Shown here piece after piece: positions 15,672 to 36,552 of a stretch of 64,000 nucleotides of DNA (position 1 is the stretch's first letter; the number at the start of each line of letters is the position of its first letter). Below the pieces are notes generated by a model, which was not told the origin of the DNA, searched no databases, and was given only the letters and a program-made list of their open reading frames with translations. The position numbers were made by a program, and so were the translations under genes. This stretch comes from Escherichia coli (GTDB lineage Bacteria > Pseudomonadota > Gammaproteobacteria > Enterobacterales > Enterobacteriaceae). Location: the NCBI GenBank assembly GCA_002099625.1, contig GCA_002099625.1_4857.1, one strand, 5' to 3'.

Positions 15672-17969
15672 TTAGCCGCCAGCGCCTTCACCGCCAGTAC
15701 CTGGCTGGGTACCGCCGCCAACATCACCAGCATTACCACCGTCAGTACCGCCGGTACCGTTGGAAGTAGTAGTGACGTTGAACGCCAGTTTCTCTTCCAC
15801 GAACTTGGTGATACCTTTAATCCAGATCAGACCAGTGATCGGGCAGTGGCAGATGTGCGCGTTACGAGGCTGTACTGCCAGCTCTTTGCTGGTAGCGCCG
15901 TTACGCTGGATGTTGATGTTGGTTACCATGATCGGAGACCAGAAGTGGTTACCCCAGTTCAGAACACAGTAAGAACCATCATCAGCGGTTGGAACTTTCA
16001 GAACCCACTGCAGGCGGCGAGTCCAGCTGCCGTCAGCTTCGTTCTTCACACGCCAGCGGTCATCGTTGGTGGTGATAACTTCGTACTCGTAGCGATCGCC
16101 CAGCAGACGCTGGTCACCCTGAACCAGCAGCAGCATTGCAGCAGTCGGTTCGTCAGTTGCGATAACAACTTTCGGCAGTGCGTTCGGGTCCGCAGTCAGC
16201 AGGCGCAGAGCCGGCATGAAGCGAGAGTCCTGGATAGCACGAGTTACCTGGTCACCGATACGCTGTACCAGACCCTGACGGGCGTTGATGAGCGCATCTT
16301 TGGTATCCAGAGACTGGATCACTTTGTCCACTTCGTAGTCGCTTTCGCTGTACCACGGAGCAACCCAGTGACGGCCCAGGCCGCGGATAGCAGGTTTGTC
16401 CCACGGAGTGATCATGGACGCAGCTGCGTTCTTAACCGCTTCGGTGTAAGACAGAGTCTGAGTGATAGCCAGCATTTCGTTACGGATGTTAACCGCAGAA
16501 ACGAGGTCGTCCAGACGTTCGGTGTCGTCGTATTCAACGCCAACCGGAGATTTGGTCATGATCGGAGAACCGTACTGCAGTTTGTAGTTCTCTTGTTCCC
16601 AAATCGGGTCGAGCAGAAGGCCCTGGGTTCTCCGGTTCTCGTTGGTACGAGTACCGTCGAAGCGCCAGCCCAGCAGCTCCAGTTTCAGGTTGTCGATGAT
16701 CACTTTACCGGTGCCGCTTTCGATATCAACAGCAGTACCAGTTGCGTCGTACAGACCTTCGATTTCCAGAGACGGTGCAGTCACGTCAACACGACCAGAG
16801 AACTGACCGTTGGTGAACAGAGACATGCTGATGTTCATGGAATAACGAATGGTGTAATCGTTCTGTGCCAGAGCGGCCAGTGCCGGGATTTCAGCACCTT
16901 TCCAGTCCAGAGACTTGGCGTTCAGGGAGAACACGGTGCGACGGAACTGCAGGACCAGCTCACGGCCATCACCTTCAGGAGGACGCTGGAAAGTAGCGAA
17001 CTGCATGTCGCGTACGTTCAGTTTGATCAGCGCACCATCTTTCGCTTCTTCGGTCGGCTTACGCACAGACAGCAGCAGGCTACCCAGCGCCGCACCCGGT
17101 GCGATTTCGTCGGTTTCATCGTAACCTTCCTGCACGATACCCGGATGGGCAGACAGCTGGAACAGGTTCAGACGACGTTCAGAGAAGCTCAGGTAGTTGG
17201 TCGGATACGCCGGCACACGACCCAGCTGAACGTTTTCGTTTTCGATGATGTCTTCGGATACGAAGAACTTCGCGTTCTCGCCGGTTTCCATCACGTAAGG
17301 AACGATACGGATAGCATCGTCCTGCAGGACTTTGTGGTTAGACAGCGCGTTATGCAGCGGCTGACGGTTGTCTTCAACCACGTCTTTGGTCAGCAGGGCG
17401 TTCAGGATACCACGAGTTACAGTAGTAACTTTGGTACGAACGGTGATGCCGACGTCGTTGGTGTCCACAGTGATGGTCGGGAACAGGGTTTCTGCAAACT
17501 TGGATTGAGTTTCCAGAGCACGCACGTTCAGCGTCCAGGTCAGACCCAGGTTTTTGTCCAGGTCTTTGTTGGTGTAGTATTCGGTTGCGACCAGCGGAGT
17601 TTTACCGTAGTCAGCAGCCAGAGATGCTGCACCGGAAATAGCGATCGGCATGTAGCTGGCATATTCCGGCTTCGCGCTCTCAGCAGCAACACGGGTCATG
17701 AAGTCATCTTCGTGACCGGCAGCAGCCAGAATCATCGCAGAAGCAACCTGAGCAGCGTGGCTCATGGTTTTGCCAGGGTTTACAGCTTCGTAGTGCTGCT
17801 GAGCAGTGTCACGCAGGTTGGTGAAGCCGGCAGCATTTTTACGTACAGATTCGCCAACGGCTACGGTTTGCCATACGTCATTAGCGGAAGAGCCTGCCTT
17901 GGCAGCAGCGACCAGAGCATTGCCCTGCTGAACCAGCTGGTCCAGACTAGCGATACGGGTATCTTTCAT
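15672..17969 (-). CDS. putative major capsid protein (765 aa) with Ala-rich propeptide-like N-terminus and Gly-rich C-terminal tail; tail sheath is the alternative
   Basis: Strongly host-like codon bias (CTG, CGT, GGT, AAC dominate), own strong terminator, size in the range of phiKZ-type capsid proteins; N-terminal ~130 aa contain several S/A/G-x-E sites (AGHE, VGE, VATE). No homology search done. Confidence 0.45.
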   Translation of the reverse strand: MKDTRIASLDQLVQQGNALVAAAKAGSSANDVWQTVAVGESVRKNAAGFTNLRDTAQQHYEAVNPGKTMSHAAQVASAMILAAAGHEDDFMTRVAAESAKPEYASYMPIAISGAASLAADYGKTPLVATEYYTNKDLDKNLGLTWTLNVRALETQSKFAETLFPTITVDTNDVGITVRTKVTTVTRGILNALLTKDVVEDNRQPLHNALSNHKVLQDDAIRIVPYVMETGENAKFFVSEDIIENENVQLGRVPAYPTNYLSFSERRLNLFQLSAHPGIVQEGYDETDEIAPGAALGSLLLSVRKPTEEAKDGALIKLNVRDMQFATFQRPPEGDGRELVLQFRRTVFSLNAKSLDWKGAEIPALAALAQNDYTIRYSMNISMSLFTNGQFSGRVDVTAPSLEIEGLYDATGTAVDIESGTGKVIIDNLKLELLGWRFDGTRTNENRRTQGLLLDPIWEQENYKLQYGSPIMTKSPVGVEYDDTERLDDLVSAVNIRNEMLAITQTLSYTEAVKNAAASMITPWDKPAIRGLGRHWVAPWYSESDYEVDKVIQSLDTKDALINARQGLVQRIGDQVTRAIQDSRFMPALRLLTADPNALPKVVIATDEPTAAMLLLVQGDQRLLGDRYEYEVITTNDDRWRVKNEADGSWTRRLQWVLKVPTADDGSYCVLNWGNHFWSPIMVTNINIQRNGATSKELAVQPRNAHICHCPITGLIWIKGITKFVEEKLAFNVTTTSNGTGGTDGGNAGDVGGGTQPGTGGEGAGG

Positions 17970-31186: not shown

Positions 31187-31227
31187 CAAAAAAAGAAGAG
31201 GTAAATCCCCCACCGAAGTGGGGGATT
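31187..31227 (-). terminator. intrinsic terminator downstream of tandem paralogue A
   Basis: Hairpin AATCCCCC-accgaagt-GGGGGATT (31204-31227) followed on the minus strand by TACCTCTTCTTTTTTTGTC. Confidence 0.65.
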
Positions 31228-31238
31228 CGCCAGTCTAA

Positions 31239-32498
31239 TTACTTAGACTTTTCATACGCACCGATACCAGCGCTGATGTAGCCGTTAACGCCGGCGATCA
31301 GGTTTTTCTGGCCAGTTGCAACGCAACGTTCGGTCCAGGAGATGTACTGGTTCGCAACGGTGATTGCACGACGCGCAACACGGACGTTGGAAGTCAGTTC
31401 AGCATTGTCATCGATCTTCACGCCGTCGATACGTTTCAGCAGCGCCTCAATAGCCCGCTCGTACGATTCTTGAGCCTGGTTATTTTTGTGGTACGCTTTC
31501 ACGTTCTCTTCGACTGCTTTACCCAGCTGGTTGAAGAACGCAACCAGAGAAGACAGCGTCTGAGCAGACGGAGTAGAAACAGATTTTTCTACGCTGCCTT
31601 CAGCATCGATAACGGTGAAGGAAGCTTCCAGGTCATCCCCGTTCACTTTCACGTCAGCTTTACCGATCTGGTTACCCAGCAGTTGAACTTCGCCCGCTTT
31701 GCCTGCAGTGGCTTTGTTAACCGCTGCTGCGAAGCCGCTGTTCAGTTTGCCGCCTTCAACTGCGCTGACCATGCTGGTTGCAGCTTTGACCACTGCATCC
31801 TGCTCGCCGTAGATGCTGCCGATAGTAGACAGAACACCTTTCAGTGCATTGATGTCGTCACCAACAAACTTACCACCGGTGGTCAGGTTCTTAATGAACC
31901 CACCGCTAATGGTGTCTTTCTTCTGCTTGCCCAGGCCACGCAGAGCCGCGTCATATTTCTTAGCGCGCGCCTGAATGGATTTACCCTGGTTGCTGAACTT
32001 GAGCCAGCGATCTTTGATTTTACGGCCTTGTTCTTTCAGCCAGTCGAAGATACGCTGCAGGAACGCTTTGATGTCGTCCCACAGTGATTCGCGAGCAACC
32101 TGACGGCGTTTACGTGCGCCGTAAGATTCCTGCGCAACGCTTACGCGGTGATCAAATGCCCAACGTTTACGGATAGATTCCTGCGCAACGTCCAGCTGCT
32201 CAGCAGCTTCGTCAGGCATATCTTCTTCCACTTCCATTGGCTCTTCGCCATCTTCGCCTTCACCGTCAGCGGCGGCTTCAGCAGCATCAACTGCATCCAG
32301 CTGTGCATCAGTTTCGTCACCGTCTTCTGCCAGCACGTCTGCTTCTGCGTCCAGCTGGTCGATCGGTTTGGTGTCATGCTCGATGTCAGCCAGAGTACCT
32401 TCCACGGACTCAGCCGGCAGCTCGATACCATCTGGAACGACAGTGCCTGCGCCTTCGACAGATTCACGAGCGAGTTTACTTTTTACAAAGTTTGCCAT
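31239..32498 (-). CDS. abundant alpha-helical Ala/Lys-rich protein, tandem paralogue A (419 aa); candidate internal head or scaffold-like virion protein
   Basis: Strong codon bias; N-terminal 15 aa (MANFVKSKLARESVE) and C-terminal AGIGAYEKSK identical to the neighbouring gene; acidic N-terminal ~105 aa ending VAQE then basic SIRKRWA. Confidence 0.6.
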   Translation of the reverse strand: MANFVKSKLARESVEGAGTVVPDGIELPAESVEGTLADIEHDTKPIDQLDAEADVLAEDGDETDAQLDAVDAAEAAADGEGEDGEEPMEVEEDMPDEAAEQLDVAQESIRKRWAFDHRVSVAQESYGARKRRQVARESLWDDIKAFLQRIFDWLKEQGRKIKDRWLKFSNQGKSIQARAKKYDAALRGLGKQKKDTISGGFIKNLTTGGKFVGDDINALKGVLSTIGSIYGEQDAVVKAATSMVSAVEGGKLNSGFAAAVNKATAGKAGEVQLLGNQIGKADVKVNGDDLEASFTVIDAEGSVEKSVSTPSAQTLSSLVAFFNQLGKAVEENVKAYHKNNQAQESYERAIEALLKRIDGVKIDDNAELTSNVRVARRAITVANQYISWTERCVATGQKNLIAGVNGYISAGIGAYEKSK

Positions 32499-32575
32499 CT
32501 TTTTCTATCCTCTAGGCGGTACGCCGTGTACCGCCATTAATGATTTGTCAACTGACGTTCAGTACGTAAAGCGGA

Positions 32576-33853
32576 TTAAGCTTTAGACTTTTCGTACGCG
32601 CCAATACCAGCACCGATGTAGCCGTTCAGGCCGCTGATAACAGTGTTACCAACGTGAGCCACAGCACGGTTCAGAGTCTGGTAGTTACGCACAGCCTGGT
32701 CAGCCGCAGTGCGTGCATTACGCAGCGCTTCCCACTCGCCTTCGTCGTTGGATTTTTTCAGAGCGGCAGCAGCTTTGGCAGCAGCCTCTTCCAGTTTCTC
32801 AACGTCAGCGTCGTAGCTGCGGAAGTCTTGCAGGACTTTCTCGAAGCCTTTACCGATAACGTCCAGGGCAGACGCAGCAGATGCCAGTGCAGAAATAGCC
32901 GGAGTAGCGATTTCTTTCGTTTCAGAAACGTCACCCGTCGACAGGAAGGCCACTGCGGTGAATTCCTGACCGCCTGCCAGAGTTTTGCTGCCGGTCTGTA
33001 CATAGGCGTTGCCTGGCAGTGCCAGAACTTTCTGACCGCCTTCGCCGTCTTCGAATTGCGGCAGTGCGCGCAGTTTCTTCGCAGCGGTACCAAACAGGGC
33101 AACGTCAACAGCGCCTTTAGCAGCGGTTGCGGTACCGTCTGAAGTTTTGGTGATCGCTACAGCAGAGTCAGCCGCCTGAGAGGACAGCTTGTTGATGGCA
33201 TCTTTCGCTTTACCGCCGGTCAGCTCTTTCGCGATAGCGATAGAGTTGGCCACATCGAATTCACCTTCGATAGACAGTTTGCTAATAAAGCCACCAGAAA
33301 TGTTTTCTTTCTTCTGTTTGCCGAGCTTACGCAGCATCTCCTGGTAAGCTTTCGCACGTTTCTGCGCGGACTTACCAACGTTGATGTACTTCAGTTTCAG
33401 CTCTTTCGCTTTCGCGATAACTGCTTTACACAGTTCAACGAAGCGTTCGAACAGATCTTTCAGGGTTTCTTTCCAGCCTTCCTGAGCTGCTTTGGTCATG
33501 CCACGGCCGCGACGATAAGATTCGCGTGCCAGTTTGGTACGATCGATAGCCCAACGCTTACGGATAGATTCCTGCGCCACTTCGGTGTGAGCGATGGCTT
33601 CTTCAGGCATCTCTTCACCGTTTTCGATTTTTTCGTCAGCAGCGTCGATAGCAGCTTCGGTACGCTCGGTATCAGCAGCCAGGGTTTCCTGGTCACCATC
33701 GAGCTGTTCCAGCTGACCGTCGATAGACGCAACTTCTGCCAGCTGAACGTCGATGTTCTCTTCTGCCGGTTCAACGTTGCTCAGACCGTCGATTACGTCG
33801 CCGGTAGCTTCAACGGACTCGCGGGCGAGTTTACTTTTTACAAAGTTTGCCAT
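32576..33853 (-). CDS. abundant alpha-helical Ala/Lys-rich protein, tandem paralogue B (425 aa)
   Basis: Same N- and C-terminal peptides as paralogue A; shared internal blocks AQESIRKRWA, LGKQKK-x-x-ISGGFI, GLNGYI-x-AGIGAYEKSK; codon-biased. Confidence 0.6.
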   Translation of the reverse strand: MANFVKSKLARESVEATGDVIDGLSNVEPAEENIDVQLAEVASIDGQLEQLDGDQETLAADTERTEAAIDAADEKIENGEEMPEEAIAHTEVAQESIRKRWAIDRTKLARESYRRGRGMTKAAQEGWKETLKDLFERFVELCKAVIAKAKELKLKYINVGKSAQKRAKAYQEMLRKLGKQKKENISGGFISKLSIEGEFDVANSIAIAKELTGGKAKDAINKLSSQAADSAVAITKTSDGTATAAKGAVDVALFGTAAKKLRALPQFEDGEGGQKVLALPGNAYVQTGSKTLAGGQEFTAVAFLSTGDVSETKEIATPAISALASAASALDVIGKGFEKVLQDFRSYDADVEKLEEAAAKAAAALKKSNDEGEWEALRNARTAADQAVRNYQTLNRAVAHVGNTVISGLNGYIGAGIGAYEKSKA

Positions 33854-33886
33854 TTGTTTCGGTTCCTTTGGTTATAACCCAATTAC

Positions 33887-33920
33887 ACGCCCCTAGATAA
33901 GGGGCCCCCTTAGGGACGTG
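33887..33920. promoter_or_regulatory. nested dyad symmetry (CACGCCCCTA ... TAGGGACGTG enclosing TAAGGGG-c-CCCCTTA) between 33910..34467 and paralogue B
   Basis: Read directly; overlaps the stop codon of the upstream gene and lies about 35 nt upstream of the paralogue B start; no U-tract on the minus strand. Confidence 0.35.
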
Positions 33921-34490: not shown

Positions 34491-35423
34491 TTAGACCAGA
34501 CCGTATTTTTTCTCCAGACGTTCACGTTTGTACTTGAGTTCCATCAAACGCTTTTCGTGCGCTTCGATGAGTTTCTCAATGTGCACGTCCCCTTCACCGG
34601 CAGCCAGTTGTTTCTTGTACAACAGAATACGCAGCTCAGTCGCTTTCGCGGCTTCCACGCACTCGTCGTAACGATCCATTTGCCATTCTGCAATGTTCAG
34701 ACGCACGCGGTAAATAATCGACAGCGGGAACGGAACGGAGGACATACCCAGTGGGTCAGTGGTGTTCGAACCGAACTGCTGAACCAATTGGCTATATGTC
34801 TCTTCGTCAAACACCGCTTCAGGTATCTCAGCGTAGTCTGCTTTCAGTTTGGTAATGGGGGTTGCCAGGACGCGCACCGCAATACAGAAAGACGTCTTAC
34901 GAGTTTGCAGATACTGAAGGTCTTTCGGACCGATTCCCTTCACTGCAATGTTCGAGTCTTGTACAGCGGCAATCTCTTCGGCCGTGATGTAGTTAATCAG
35001 GGTGCTAGCGTAACCGACGAAGAATTCGATCATATCCAGCAACTGCAACACGGTTTGTTTGTTGAACGTTAGAGATGATGTCACTAACGTCTTCCCGATG
35101 TCGCGGTCGATACACTGCTCCAGGAAAGGTCGCAGCGCCTGTACGTTCTGCATAGACGCGATGACGTACTCCAGCATACTTGCGTTACGTAACCCTTTAA
35201 CTTCCAAACCGGAGCTATGCAGGTACTTAACGATTTCAGTAGAAAGGTCAGCAACAGGCTTCGCTTTAAATGGCTTACCCTGGATACTTCCTACCAGTTC
35301 CTGGAGGTTCTGGAACTGTGGCTCTAACGCAGCAATCGAGTCGCAGTTAGATGACAGTTGGTTTTTTAAGTTCGTGGCTTCGAAGCTCGGCAGCAACATC
35401 GCCAACATATTCGGAATCGGCAT
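34491..35423 (-). CDS. hypothetical protein
   Basis: Track ORF starts at 35468 and overlaps the upstream gene by 35 nt; the ATG at 35423 (MPIPNMLAML...) just after the upstream stop is the likelier start. Confidence 0.5.
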   Translation of the reverse strand: MPIPNMLAMLLPSFEATNLKNQLSSNCDSIAALEPQFQNLQELVGSIQGKPFKAKPVADLSTEIVKYLHSSGLEVKGLRNASMLEYVIASMQNVQALRPFLEQCIDRDIGKTLVTSSLTFNKQTVLQLLDMIEFFVGYASTLINYITAEEIAAVQDSNIAVKGIGPKDLQYLQTRKTSFCIAVRVLATPITKLKADYAEIPEAVFDEETYSQLVQQFGSNTTDPLGMSSVPFPLSIIYRVRLNIAEWQMDRYDECVEAAKATELRILLYKKQLAAGEGDVHIEKLIEAHEKRLMELKYKRERLEKKYGLV

Positions 35424-35433
35424 TCTTTTCCCC

Positions 35434-36552
35434 TTACAGTACCGGATTCGCGCCGACGCGATAGGCATCGATGATTTTGTTTACATCGCCGCTACCGGAC
35501 TTCGCCTTGCTAAAGTCTGATTTGTCGAGTTCTTGAGACCCGGTCTGACCACGCGTATAAATGGTTACACGGTTCCAGGTCTGGTCGACAACCACGTAGT
35601 AAACAGTCAGGGTGTCTTTGAACACACGCTGGCGGATATTGTAATCATCGAAGTCACCGCCCAGCTGAGCAGTCAGATCGTCGATAGTTTCTTGAGAAAC
35701 CACCATAACCGAAGACGCGTTGTTGATGGATGGGCTCAGCGTCAGCAGGCCAGACAGCCAGTTGGCGTTTTTCTTTTCCATCATCTTACGGTAATAACCG
35801 GACTTATCACGGAAGCGGTTCTTACGGTATTCTTCAATGAGGTCATTACACAGCGCGATATCTTTCGCGTAGCTGAGAGAACCGACCTTCGCACGCAGCA
35901 CACGTTCCCAGAAGGTTTTGGTTTGATCGCTGAACGCAATGAGCGTTTTCATTTCGTCGGTCGGCAGAGACTTCACATCAAGACGCAGACGCATCGGCAG
36001 CTCGACTTTATTACCGTCACGTTCGAAGGTAACAGAGAACACTTTACCGTTGGACAGACCTTCTTGATCATGCAGGAGCTTCAGCGTGTTGTTCGGCAGC
36101 ACAGAACCTGCGGACGATTCAGTCGCTACTTTGTTATCGGATTTCTGGCGACGGGATTCACCGACCGCAAGCCCGATTTTATCGTATGACGGCAGCGCGT
36201 GACGGGAGGACTCGCCGATTGCGAAAGACGCTAAGCGAGAACCCGAACGTGCAGCCGCGTCGAGGGCATTACGACGGGTGCTAACCTGGTCAAGCGTACC
36301 AAGGATATCAACCTCAGGAACACCTACCAGAATTGAGATGGCGGTAAGTTGGTTGCCCGCGAGCAGGATTTGGATTTTCTCCAGAATACCTGGCAGGTAA
36401 TCTAAGCCCAACAGACTTTGTTCAACCAGCGTGGTGTGCTCGTTGTACAGCACAGAGTTGAATTCTTCCGTCGATTCCGCCCGCTGGCGAAGCAGCATGG
36501 GAAACTTAGAAAGAAAGGAGACGAGCGATGTCTCAAATGTTTTTTCTGCCAT
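35434..36552 (-). CDS. hypothetical protein (372 aa)
   Basis: ATG at 36552 with GGAG on the minus strand inside the palindrome CTCCGGAG shared with the divergent plus-strand gene. Confidence 0.55.
   Translation of the reverse strand: MAEKTFETSLVSFLSKFPMLLRQRAESTEEFNSVLYNEHTTLVEQSLLGLDYLPGILEKIQILLAGNQLTAISILVGVPEVDILGTLDQVSTRRNALDAAARSGSRLASFAIGESSRHALPSYDKIGLAVGESRRQKSDNKVATESSAGSVLPNNTLKLLHDQEGLSNGKVFSVTFERDGNKVELPMRLRLDVKSLPTDEMKTLIAFSDQTKTFWERVLRAKVGSLSYAKDIALCNDLIEEYRKNRFRDKSGYYRKMMEKKNANWLSGLLTLSPSINNASSVMVVSQETIDDLTAQLGGDFDDYNIRQRVFKDTLTVYYVVVDQTWNRVTIYTRGQTGSQELDKSDFSKAKSGSGDVNKIIDAYRVGANPVL

What the first reader, a model, noticed from the sequence alone, without database searches (positions are those of the whole stretch)
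31239..33853. Tandem paralogues with identical N-terminal 15 aa and C-terminal 10 aa, acidic propeptide-like N-regions and an A-x-E junction
The two genes share MANFVKSKLARESVE and AGIGAYEKSK with about 40% identity between. The first 29 nt are identical, then codons diverge synonymously, pointing to selection on the N-terminal peptide. Each has an acidic ~100-aa N-region ending VAQE followed by basic SIRKRWA, fitting the S/A/G-x-E prohead-protease cleavage reported for phiKZ-type head and inner-body proteins. Strong codon bias and a private terminator suggest very high expression.
Basis: partly seen in the sequence, partly recalled or inferred. Interest (0 to 1): 0.7.

Follow-up and report, generated by a model that had tools for sequence, protein, structure and literature searches.

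The report
Known SPN3US internal head protein pair
These two neighbouring genes are the already well-studied gp53 and gp54 of the giant Salmonella phage SPN3US, very abundant proteins packed inside the phage head and trimmed by the phage's own protease, so the finding is real but already published.

Summary
Two minus-strand genes (32576-33853, 425 aa; 31239-32498, 419 aa) share MANFVKSKLARESVE, AGIGAYEKSK and 34% identity overall. The first 29 nt are identical, and the next five codons all differ synonymously.

The window is 98% identical to Salmonella jumbo phage SPN3US. The genes are its gp53 (100% identical protein) and gp54 (3 substitutions), both Pfam PF12699 phiKZ-like internal head proteins.

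Everything central in the finding is published:
- The identical 15-residue N-termini and a T4 capsid-targeting-sequence analogy (Ali 2017).
- More than 600 copies of each per head.
- Cleavage by prohead protease gp245 at A-x-E, in vivo and in vitro.

It is not the mature N-terminus. The mature ends are G126 (after AQE-125) in gp53 and S138 (after ARE-137) in gp54.

What I add:
- Across 15 phage lineages the variable leader residues and the C-terminal tail co-vary between the two paralogues within each genome (72% vs 32% identity; p<5e-5). One clear 47-nt gene conversion was found.
- A covarying hairpin lies between the two genes.
- By homology with phiKZ gp93/gp162, the acidic segment may remain as a capsid-lining fragment.

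Verdict: already known, low interest.

The parts
32576..33853 (-). Gene for the 425-aa internal head (ejection) protein, equal to SPN3US gp53; Pfam PF12699
   Evidence: ORF. 100% identical protein to SPN3US gp53, with 9 synonymous nt differences. PF12699 E 3.3e-75. RefSeq annotation is 'internal head protein'.
31239..32498 (-). Gene for the 419-aa paralogue, equal to SPN3US gp54; Pfam PF12699
   Evidence: ORF. 99.3% identical to SPN3US gp54, with V197I, N214D and T268A, all in the mature domain. PF12699 E 5.4e-57.
33818..33853 (-). gp53 leader, residues 1-12 (MANFVKSKLARE), basic, removed at ARE-12
   Evidence: Sequence. pI 10. ARE-12 cleavage published. N3, F4, A10, E12 and S13 invariant in 44 homologues.
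32463..32498 (-). gp54 leader, residues 1-12, identical peptide; first 29 nt identical to gp53
   Evidence: Cleavage here is inferred from gp53 and from the motif.
33569..33817 (-). gp53 acidic segment, residues 13-95, ending VAQE (AQE-95 cleavage site)
   Evidence: 26 D/E against 2 K/R, pI 4.05. AQE-95 cleavage published. Colinear with phiKZ gp93 by BLASTP, 8-191 vs 9-234, E 5e-4.
32178..32462 (-). gp54 acidic segment, residues 13-107, ending VAQE (candidate site AQE-107, not reported)
   Evidence: 35 D/E against 1 K/R, pI 4.05.
33479..33568 (-). gp53 basic linker, residues 96-125 (SIRKRWA...AAQE), holding the invariant ARE-111 motif and the maturation site AQE-125
   Evidence: pI 11.6. Invariant E95, S96, R100, W101, E111, S112. 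AQE-125 is the published maturation site.
32088..32177 (-). gp54 basic linker, residues 108-137, with AQE-124 and the maturation site ARE-137
   Evidence: published sites.
32579..33478 (-). gp53 mature domain, residues 126-425: basic (pI 9.2), long helical bundle with a small beta-hairpin subdomain
   Evidence: AlphaFold model pLDDT 82, pTM 0.79. Fold shared with more than 100 jumbo-phage virion proteins.
31242..32087 (-). gp54 mature domain, residues 138-419 (pI 9.4)
   Evidence: published mature N-terminus SLWDDIK.
32582..32611 (-). gp53 C-terminal motif AGIGAYEKSK, followed by one Ala
   Evidence: G416, I417, A419 and Y420 invariant or nearly so. The tail co-varies with that of the paralogue.
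31242..31271 (-). gp54 C-terminal motif AGIGAYEKSK
32515..32535 (-). Hairpin between the two genes (GGCGGTAC-ACGGC-GTACCGCC), directly upstream of the gp54 Shine-Dalgarno AGAGGA (32508-32513)
   Evidence: Alignment of 13 phages: 5 of 7 pairs keep pairing through changes on both sides; AGAGGA invariant.
31188..31228 (-). Intrinsic terminator after gp54 (11-bp stem, TTCG loop, T-run)
33863..33912 (-). Conserved non-coding element upstream of gp53 (TAAGGGGGCCCCTTATCTAGGGGCGTGTAATTGGGTTATAACCAAAGGAA); candidate promoter or 5' UTR element
   Evidence: Nearly invariant in phages whose gp53 is only 56-76% identical. Unique in the window. Function not tested.

Best explanation
The two genes are gp53 and gp54 of an SPN3US-type Salmonella jumbo phage. 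They are tandem paralogues of the phiKZ-like internal head protein family (PF12699).

Expression (inferred from the layout): they appear to be transcribed together late in infection. The unit begins with a conserved upstream element, has a hairpin plus a strong Shine-Dalgarno between the genes, and ends in one terminator. Codon usage is the most biased in the window after the capsid gene.

Precursor layout (shown here): each precursor has four parts.
1. A basic 12-residue leader ending in A-R-E|S.
2. An acidic segment of 83-95 residues (pI 4).
3. A basic 30-residue linker carrying two or three more A-x-E|S sites.
4. A basic, mainly helical domain of about 290 residues.

Shown by others:
- More than 600 copies of each protein enter the prohead.
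- In a protease-deficient mutant, the mottled capsids carry a T=1 inner shell built mainly of these two proteins.
- Prohead protease gp245 cuts gp53 at E12, E95 and E125, and gp54 at E124 and E137.
- The mature domains stay inside the DNA-filled head. The SPN3US authors classify them as ejection proteins, by homology with phiKZ inner-body proteins.

Inferred:
- The leader acts as a capsid-targeting label of the T4 CTS type and is removed after docking.
- By colinear homology with phiKZ gp93/gp162, the acidic segment released between E12 and E95/E107 contacts the inner capsid surface and may partly persist there.
- The leader's variable residues and the extreme C-terminal tail are kept matched between the two paralogues within each genome. 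The likely causes are short-tract gene conversion, selection for recognition by one shared partner, or both.
For: Identity:
- 98.4% nt identity to SPN3US. gp53 100% and gp54 99.3% identical, with all mapped sites intact.
- PF12699 at E 3e-75 and 5e-57.
- The fold matches more than 100 phiKZ-like virion or internal head proteins, TM up to 0.82.
- Synteny with phiKZ: window gp50 matches gp89 (E 8e-34) and gp51 matches gp90 (E 4e-18), followed by the internal head protein array.

Published experiments:
- Abundance and head location.
- Cleavage sites in Table 2, and in vitro cleavage.
- Inner shell of the mottled capsid.
- Published cleavage logo V-A-x-E|S.

Architecture:
- Charge segmentation.
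- Invariant A10/E12/S13, E95/S96, A109/E111/S112 and A123/E125 in 44 homologues.

Expression: Nc and Fop ranks 2 and 3 of 52; terminator; covarying hairpin plus invariant Shine-Dalgarno.

Concerted evolution:
- Five leader residues: 0.72 identity for same-genome paralogues, against 0.32 for cross-genome paralogues and 0.32-0.36 for orthologues, p<5e-5. The middle of the protein gives 0.31 against 0.30.
- C-terminal tail: 0.69 against 0.42, p<5e-5.
- L005 has 47 identical nt where its sister genomes L006-L008 have a divergent 5' end.

Capsid-lining idea:
- phiKZ gp93 residues 14-84 and gp162 residues 19-134 are resolved on the inner capsid surface.
- gp53 propeptide peptides persist in purified heads.
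- gp53 residues 8-191 align with gp93 residues 9-234.
Against: - The targeting role of the leader has never been tested, in SPN3US or here.
- Retention of the acidic fragment on the SPN3US capsid is extrapolated from phiKZ at about 25-29% identity. The published peptide persistence could equally reflect uncleaved molecules.
- Synonymous-site support for gene conversion is modest outside L005: the same-codon rate is 0.79 within genomes against 0.64 across genomes. The cross-genome baseline is itself high, so constrained 5' codon choice explains much of the 29-nt identity.
- The lineages in the permutation test are not fully independent phylogenetically.
- The biochemical function of the mature helical domain remains unknown. 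PDB fold searches gave nothing specific.
Confidence: 0.9

Rival explanations
1. The identical termini reflect only strong purifying selection on an ancient peptide, with each paralogue evolving independently.
For: Five consecutive synonymous differences in the A-R-E-S-V codons show amino-acid-level constraint there. N3, F4, A10, E12 and S13 are invariant family-wide.
Against: Residues 5-9 are not conserved between phages (orthologue identity 0.32-0.36), yet they match between paralogues of one genome (0.72). Presence or absence of Ala2 also matches within every genome. Independent evolution predicts that same-genome and cross-genome paralogue identity are equal, as is seen for the rest of the protein (0.31 vs 0.30).
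Confidence: 0.15
2. The 29-nt identity marks a nucleic-acid element, such as a translation-initiation region or another mRNA signal shared by the two messages, rather than a peptide signal.
For: Identity starts at the ATG, at the ribosome-binding region of two extremely highly expressed genes. Codon choice in codons 3-9 is unusually uniform across the whole family: the cross-genome same-codon rate is 0.64, against 0.46-0.58 elsewhere.
Against: The tract differs between phages at non-synonymous positions, while the encoded leader keeps its basic character and its cleavage motif. The upstream UTRs of the two genes are unrelated. The peptide is a demonstrated protease substrate (ARE-12). phiKZ paralogues keep an analogous peptide (..SLE|S) with unrelated DNA.
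Confidence: 0.15
3. The whole N-terminal 125-137 residues are a disposable propeptide. The acidic part would neutralise or shield the basic mature domain, or act as a scaffold, and would then be chopped up and expelled with no part retained.
For: This is the general rule in tailed phages and the default view of the SPN3US authors. Multiple internal cuts fit clearance of small fragments. Acidic and basic charges are complementary. The AlphaFold model places confident helices 34-100 within one compact model, pTM 0.79.
Against: The homologous fragments of phiKZ gp93 and gp162 are retained and ordered on the capsid inner surface. gp53 propeptide peptides are over-represented in purified heads.
Confidence: 0.45
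4. The mature domains are ClyA-type alpha-pore-forming or membrane-remodelling proteins that are ejected to act on host membranes.
Confidence: 0.05

Closest known systems
Salmonella phage SPN3US gp53 and gp54 ('Paralog family A', high-abundance ejection proteins; Ali et al. 2017, PMC5694885; Viruses 2023, PMC10052503; Heymann et al. 2020, PMC7552025)
   Same: The same proteins: gp53 is 100% identical and gp54 99.3% identical. Gene order, the leader, all five mapped gp245 cleavage sites and the C-terminus are the same.
   Different: The host phage is a close variant: 98.4% nt identity to SPN3US, best match Salmonella phage 1252 at 98.9%. gp54 has three conservative substitutions in the mature domain.
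phiKZ inner-body / internal head proteins gp92-97, gp162, gp163 (Pfam PF12699; Thomas et al. 2012; Yang et al. 2024, PMC11297242)
   Same: Same Pfam family and predicted fold. Same genomic position after the gp89/gp90 homologues. Short N-terminal leader ending in a small-x-E|S protease site (kz93 ..KLSLE|SIED against gp53 ..KLARE|SVEA). Multiple propeptide cleavages and a helical C-terminal domain kept in the head.
   Different: phiKZ has five homologues by the SPN3US authors' count (gp93, 94, 95, 162, 163), and eight proteins with this fold by the phiKZ capsid study, against two here. Copy numbers are lower there. The protease motif is S/A/G-x-E there and A-x-E here. phiKZ packs them into a cylindrical inner body, while SPN3US shows a T=1 inner shell in capsids made by a protease-deficient mutant. 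The conserved GY-x-x-AGI-x-AY C-terminus is absent from the phiKZ proteins.
T4 internal proteins IPI, IPII, IPIII and Alt with their capsid targeting sequence (Mullaney and Black 1996, as cited in PMC7411985)
   Same: Abundant basic proteins packed with the DNA and ejected. A leader of about 10-20 residues is conserved among otherwise divergent proteins and is removed by the prohead protease after a Glu.
   Different: No sequence or Pfam relationship was found. Here the leader is followed by a long acidic segment and further cuts, whereas T4 IPs lose only the short leader. A targeting function is demonstrated for T4 but untested here.

Membership tests
PF12699 phiKZ-like internal head proteins | Full-length match to the Pfam HMM above the gathering score | tested here: met
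   254.1 and 194.2 bits against a cut-off of 27; profile positions 2-387 of 387.
PF12699 phiKZ-like internal head proteins | Shared helix-rich fold with other jumbo-phage internal head proteins | tested here: met
   AlphaFold model pLDDT 82. 103 BFVD matches at E<=1e-3, TM up to 0.82, including 201phi2-1, PhiPA3, Ea35-70 and RSF1 virion proteins.
PF12699 phiKZ-like internal head proteins | Conserved position downstream of the gp89/gp90/gp91-type head genes | tested here: met
   Window gp50 matches phiKZ gp89 (E 8e-34) and gp51 matches gp90 (E 4e-18). The third neighbour has the same size and position but gave no BLAST hit.
PF12699 phiKZ-like internal head proteins | Physical presence inside the head of purified virions | not testable with these tools
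   Published for the identical SPN3US proteins: more than 600 copies each, and present in tailless heads.
Substrates of the phiKZ-type prohead protease (MEROPS S80; SPN3US gp245) | Cleavage C-terminal to Glu in a small-x-E motif (A-x-E, with V/A at P4 and S at P1' preferred in SPN3US) | tested here: met
   Motifs LARE|S, VAQE|S, AAQE|G, VAQE|S and VARE|S are present and family-invariant.
T4-type capsid-targeting-sequence (CTS) proteins | Short N-terminal leader conserved among divergent internal proteins and ending at a prohead-protease site | tested here: met
   A 12-residue leader shared by paralogues that are 34% identical overall; ARE-12 is cleaved.
T4-type capsid-targeting-sequence (CTS) proteins | Leader necessary and sufficient to carry a protein into the prohead | not testable with these tools
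   Only proposed by analogy in PMC5694885. No experiment was found.
T4-type capsid-targeting-sequence (CTS) proteins | Homology to T4 IPI/IPII/IPIII/Alt | tested here: not met
   The Pfam scan returns only PF12699, so this is a functional analogy and not membership.
ClyA-family alpha-pore-forming toxins | Significant structural similarity to the ClyA/Hbl/Mak helical tail plus hydrophobic beta-tongue head | tested here: not met
   [not shown]

The most novel reading that the evidence does not exclude
The two ends of these paralogues form a genome-specific address label. The variable leader residues (5-9) and the last three or four residues are kept matched between gp53 and gp54 within each phage, while differing between phages. 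This matching would arise from recurrent micro gene conversion, from co-evolution with a single docking partner in the prohead core, or from both. In addition, the acidic segment released between the first two cuts would not be waste but would persist as a capsid-lining element, as in phiKZ gp93/gp162. None of this is stated in the SPN3US papers I read: they hold no mention of gene conversion, concerted evolution or the C-terminal motif.
Probability: 0.4. Interest if true: 0.4.

Novelty: already known. Interest (0 to 1): 0.2.

Why it matters
As flagged, the finding rediscovers from raw sequence what a decade of SPN3US and phiKZ work has established: abundant internal head proteins with a conserved leader and multi-site A-x-E processing. 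That is a good validation of reading sequence alone, but it opens no new question.

The small additions here could help the groups working on jumbo-phage head assembly:
- Co-variation of both termini within genomes points to the exact residues to swap in a capsid-targeting test.
- An invariant but unreported ARE-111 motif in gp53, and AQE-107 in gp54, are specific cleavage-site predictions.
- The covarying hairpin between the genes and the conserved upstream element are candidate regulators of two of the most highly expressed late genes.

A defined targeting label would also be useful for loading foreign proteins into jumbo-phage heads.

Tried and rejected
3. Profile search of PDB sequences with the 44-sequence alignment. 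It found only SNF7 at E 0.11, over the acidic coiled region. Uninformative.
4. C-terminal AYE|KSK as a conserved protease site. It fits A-x-E in SPN3US, but the Glu is A, G, S, K or D in orthologues. Rejected as a family feature.
5. Pure gene conversion as the full explanation of the 29-nt identity. The synonymous-site test gave only 0.79 against 0.64, with a high family-wide baseline, so I downgraded it to conversion plus constrained 5' codons. L005 remains the one clear conversion event.
6. Searching the window for further copies of the element upstream of gp53, or for other genes carrying the leader or C-terminal motif. None were found.
8. tblastn of gp53 against the phage collection did not reach phiKZ, so I fetched the phiKZ locus by accession instead.
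Full report
**1. What is in the sequence**

Two ORFs lie head-to-tail on the minus strand: 32576-33853 (425 aa) and 31239-32498 (419 aa). BLASTP gives 34% identity over the full length, E 5e-53.

- Both begin MANFVKSKLARESVE. From the ATG, 29 nt are identical, and the next five codons (A, R, E, S, V) each differ by one synonymous change.
- Both carry AGIGAYEKSK at the C-terminus, with four synonymous differences. The 425-aa protein has one extra Ala after it.
- Each protein divides into a basic 12-residue leader (pI 10), an acidic stretch, a basic linker and a basic C-terminal domain.
- The acidic stretch is gp53 residues 13-95 (26 D/E, 2 K/R) and gp54 residues 13-107 (35 D/E, 1 K/R), both pI 4.05. 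Each ends in VAQE.
- The linker starts SIRKRWA (pI above 10.7). The C-terminal domain has pI 9.2-9.4.
- By effective number of codons and by frequency of optimal codons, the two genes rank 2nd and 3rd of 52 ORFs. Only the 765-aa ORF at 15672-17969 ranks higher, and by colinearity with SPN3US that is the major capsid gene.
- A strong intrinsic terminator follows the second gene.

The corrections are 34% identity instead of about 40%, the extra terminal Ala, and one terminator serving the pair.

**2. What it is**

The region is 98.4% identical in DNA to Salmonella jumbo phage SPN3US, and 98.9% identical to Salmonella phage 1252. RefSeq annotates both genes as 'internal head protein'.

- The 425-aa protein is 100% identical to SPN3US gp53; all nine nt differences are synonymous.
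- The 419-aa protein differs from gp54 at three positions, all in the mature domain.
- Both match Pfam PF12699, phiKZ-like internal head proteins, end to end (E 3e-75 and 5e-57).
- An AlphaFold model of gp53 built on 44 homologues (pLDDT 82, pTM 0.79) shows very long paired helices plus a small beta-hairpin subdomain.
- That model matches more than 100 predicted structures of virion or internal head proteins from phiKZ-like phages, TM up to 0.82.
- The neighbours upstream are homologous to phiKZ gp89 and gp90. In phiKZ these precede the gp92-97 internal head protein array.

**3. What is already published for these exact proteins**

Ali et al. 2017 (PMC5694885):
- gp53 and gp54 form 'Paralog family A', similar to pfam12699, and are present at more than 600 copies each per head.
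- It notes that they contain AXE-12 and SXE-15, that phiKZ gp93 is cut at SLE-13, and that the conservation is reminiscent of T4 capsid targeting sequences.

The 2023 mass-spectrometry study (PMC10052503):
- It maps gp245 cleavages at ARE-12, AQE-95 and AQE-125 in gp53, and at AQE-124 and ARE-137 in gp54.
- The mature N-termini are GWKETLK (gp53) and SLWDDIK (gp54).
- The cleavage logo is A-x-E with V preferred at P4 and S at P1'.
- Recombinant gp245 cleaves gp53 in vitro.
- gp53 propeptide peptides persist in purified heads.

Heymann et al. 2020 (PMC7552025) studied 'mottled' capsids made by a protease-deficient mutant. These carry a T=1 inner shell built mainly of uncleaved gp53 and gp54.

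One correction applies. The VAQE|SIRK junction is the mapped AQE-95 cut of gp53. It is an internal propeptide cut, not the mature end. The equivalent AQE-107 of gp54 has not been reported.

**4. What I add: the termini evolve in concert**

I collected 72 homologues and 23 loci from viral contigs. In 19 of these, including the window, both tandem paralogues are complete.

- Every gp53-type ORF scores far higher against gp53 than against gp54, and the reverse holds for gp54-type ORFs. The duplication therefore predates all sampled phages.
- If the copies then evolved independently, gp53 of phage A should resemble gp54 of phage A no more than gp54 of phage B.
- That expectation holds for the body of the protein: 31% against 30% identity.
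- It fails for the five variable leader residues after M(A)NF: 72% identity for same-genome paralogues, against 32% for cross-genome paralogues. Orthologue identity there is only 32-36%. Permutation p<5e-5.
- Derived states shared by both copies include VKSKL (SPN3US), AKTRA (L005), AQRNL (L009), IQQ[RK]L (L010-L014) and MQ[KQ]RA (L020-L022).
- The presence or absence of Ala2 also always matches within a genome.
- The three residues after the C-terminal A[YH] behave the same way: 69% against 42%, p<5e-5.
- In contrast, A10-x-E12-S13 is invariant in all 44 sequences, and its codons are saturated with synonymous differences (same-codon rate 0.46 both within and across genomes).

**5. How the matching might arise**

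- One event is unambiguous. In L005 the gp54-type gene shares 47 identical nt with its own gp53-type gene. Its sister genomes L006-L008 encode YKNKI there with different DNA.
- Elsewhere, identical tracts of 23-29 nt start at the ATG and end around codon 9-10. The upstream regions of the two genes are unrelated.
- The synonymous-site signal is only moderate. The same-codon rate given the same residue is 0.79 within genomes against 0.64 across genomes.
- That cross-genome baseline is itself high, so 5' codon choice is constrained family-wide.

My reading is short-tract conversion plus constrained 5' codons. Selection for a shared partner is possible but not shown. The lineages in my permutation test are not fully independent, so the p-values overstate the certainty. 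At least five separately derived matched states still make the pattern robust.

**6. Mechanism**

Shown, here or in the literature: the precursor architecture, head location and abundance, the cleavage sites, the protease, and the inner shell in capsids from the protease-deficient mutant.

Inferred:
- (a) The leader is a T4-CTS-like label, removed at ARE-12.
- (b) The acidic segment may contact the capsid's inner face and may partly stay there. In the phiKZ capsid structure (PMC11297242), gp93 residues 14-84 and gp162 residues 19-134 are ordered as fibres cementing hexamers on the inner surface. Both fragments are bounded by the mapped cleavage sites. Their helical domains are unresolved and are assigned to the inner body.
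- gp53 residues 8-191 align colinearly with gp93 residues 9-234 (E 5e-4), and the leaders are alike (KLSLE|SIED against KLARE|SVEA).
- (c) The basic mature domains, released from their acidic partners, remain with the DNA.

What the mature domain does after ejection is unknown. PDB fold searches were uninformative.

**7. Expression unit**

- Between the two genes lies a hairpin, directly followed by an invariant AGAGGA. Across 13 phages, 5 of its 7 pairs are kept through compensatory changes. It has no T-run.
- About 50 nt upstream of gp53 are nearly invariant in phages whose gp53 is only 56-76% identical. The element is unique in the window.
- Their roles were not tested. Candidates are a processing or stability site for the hairpin and a late promoter or leader for the upstream element.

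**8. Verdict**

The additions are minor extensions of a well-characterised system: concerted evolution of both termini, the predicted ARE-111 and AQE-107 sites, the hairpin between the genes, and the capsid-lining hypothesis transferred from phiKZ.

Noticed in passing
window 32515-32535 (minus strand), with Shine-Dalgarno at 32508-32513: Hairpin between the two genes (GGCGGTAC-ACGGC-GTACCGCC), directly followed by an invariant AGAGGA. In 13 phages, 5 of 7 stem pairs are maintained by compensatory changes. It has no T-run, so it is not a canonical terminator. It may be an mRNA processing, stability or translational-control element.
   Followed up: partly
window 33863-33912 (minus strand): About 50 nt of non-coding sequence upstream of the first gene (TAAGGGGGCCCCTTATCTAGGGGCGTGTAATTGGGTTATAACCAAAGGAA). 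It is almost invariant across phages whose coding sequence is only 56-76% identical, and it contains a GCCCC-N7-GGGGC hairpin and the palindrome GGTTATAACC. It is unique in the window. Candidate late promoter or leader.
   Followed up: partly
window 33518-33541 (minus strand), gp53 residues 105-112: gp53 repeats its leader's cleavage context internally (TKLARESY against SKLARESV). A109, E111 and S112 are invariant in 44 homologues, which predicts an additional gp245 site, ARE-111, absent from the published table. The parallel VAQE|S at gp54 residue 107 is also unreported.
   Followed up: partly
window 15672-17969 (minus strand): This 765-aa ORF has the strongest codon bias in the window (Nc 33.0, Fop 0.75). 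[quoted passage not shown]
   Followed up: partly
L005 5349-5395 compared with L006-L008 (IMG/VR contigs from sample 3300045988 and 3300029126): A natural 47-nt gene-conversion event. One of four sister genomes has replaced the 5' end of its gp54-type gene (YKNKI leader) with that of its own gp53-type gene (AKTRA leader).
   Followed up: yes
proteins P0052-P0058 (Salmonella phage SPFM5-SPFM20 records): Annotated 396-432-aa 'hypothetical proteins' that consist of rearranged pieces of gp53. They start with its C-terminal part and end with ...LARESVEATGDVIDG. They look like assembly or annotation artefacts in those records and not real genes.
   Followed up: no
[not shown]
   Followed up: partly
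window 34491-36552 (minus strand): The two head-protein genes upstream of the pair are homologous to phiKZ gp89 and gp90 (E 8e-34 and 4e-18). The gene block from the gp89/gp90 homologues to the internal head protein array is therefore syntenic between Seoulvirus and Phikzvirus. The third gene, at the gp91 position, gave no BLAST hit.
   Followed up: partly
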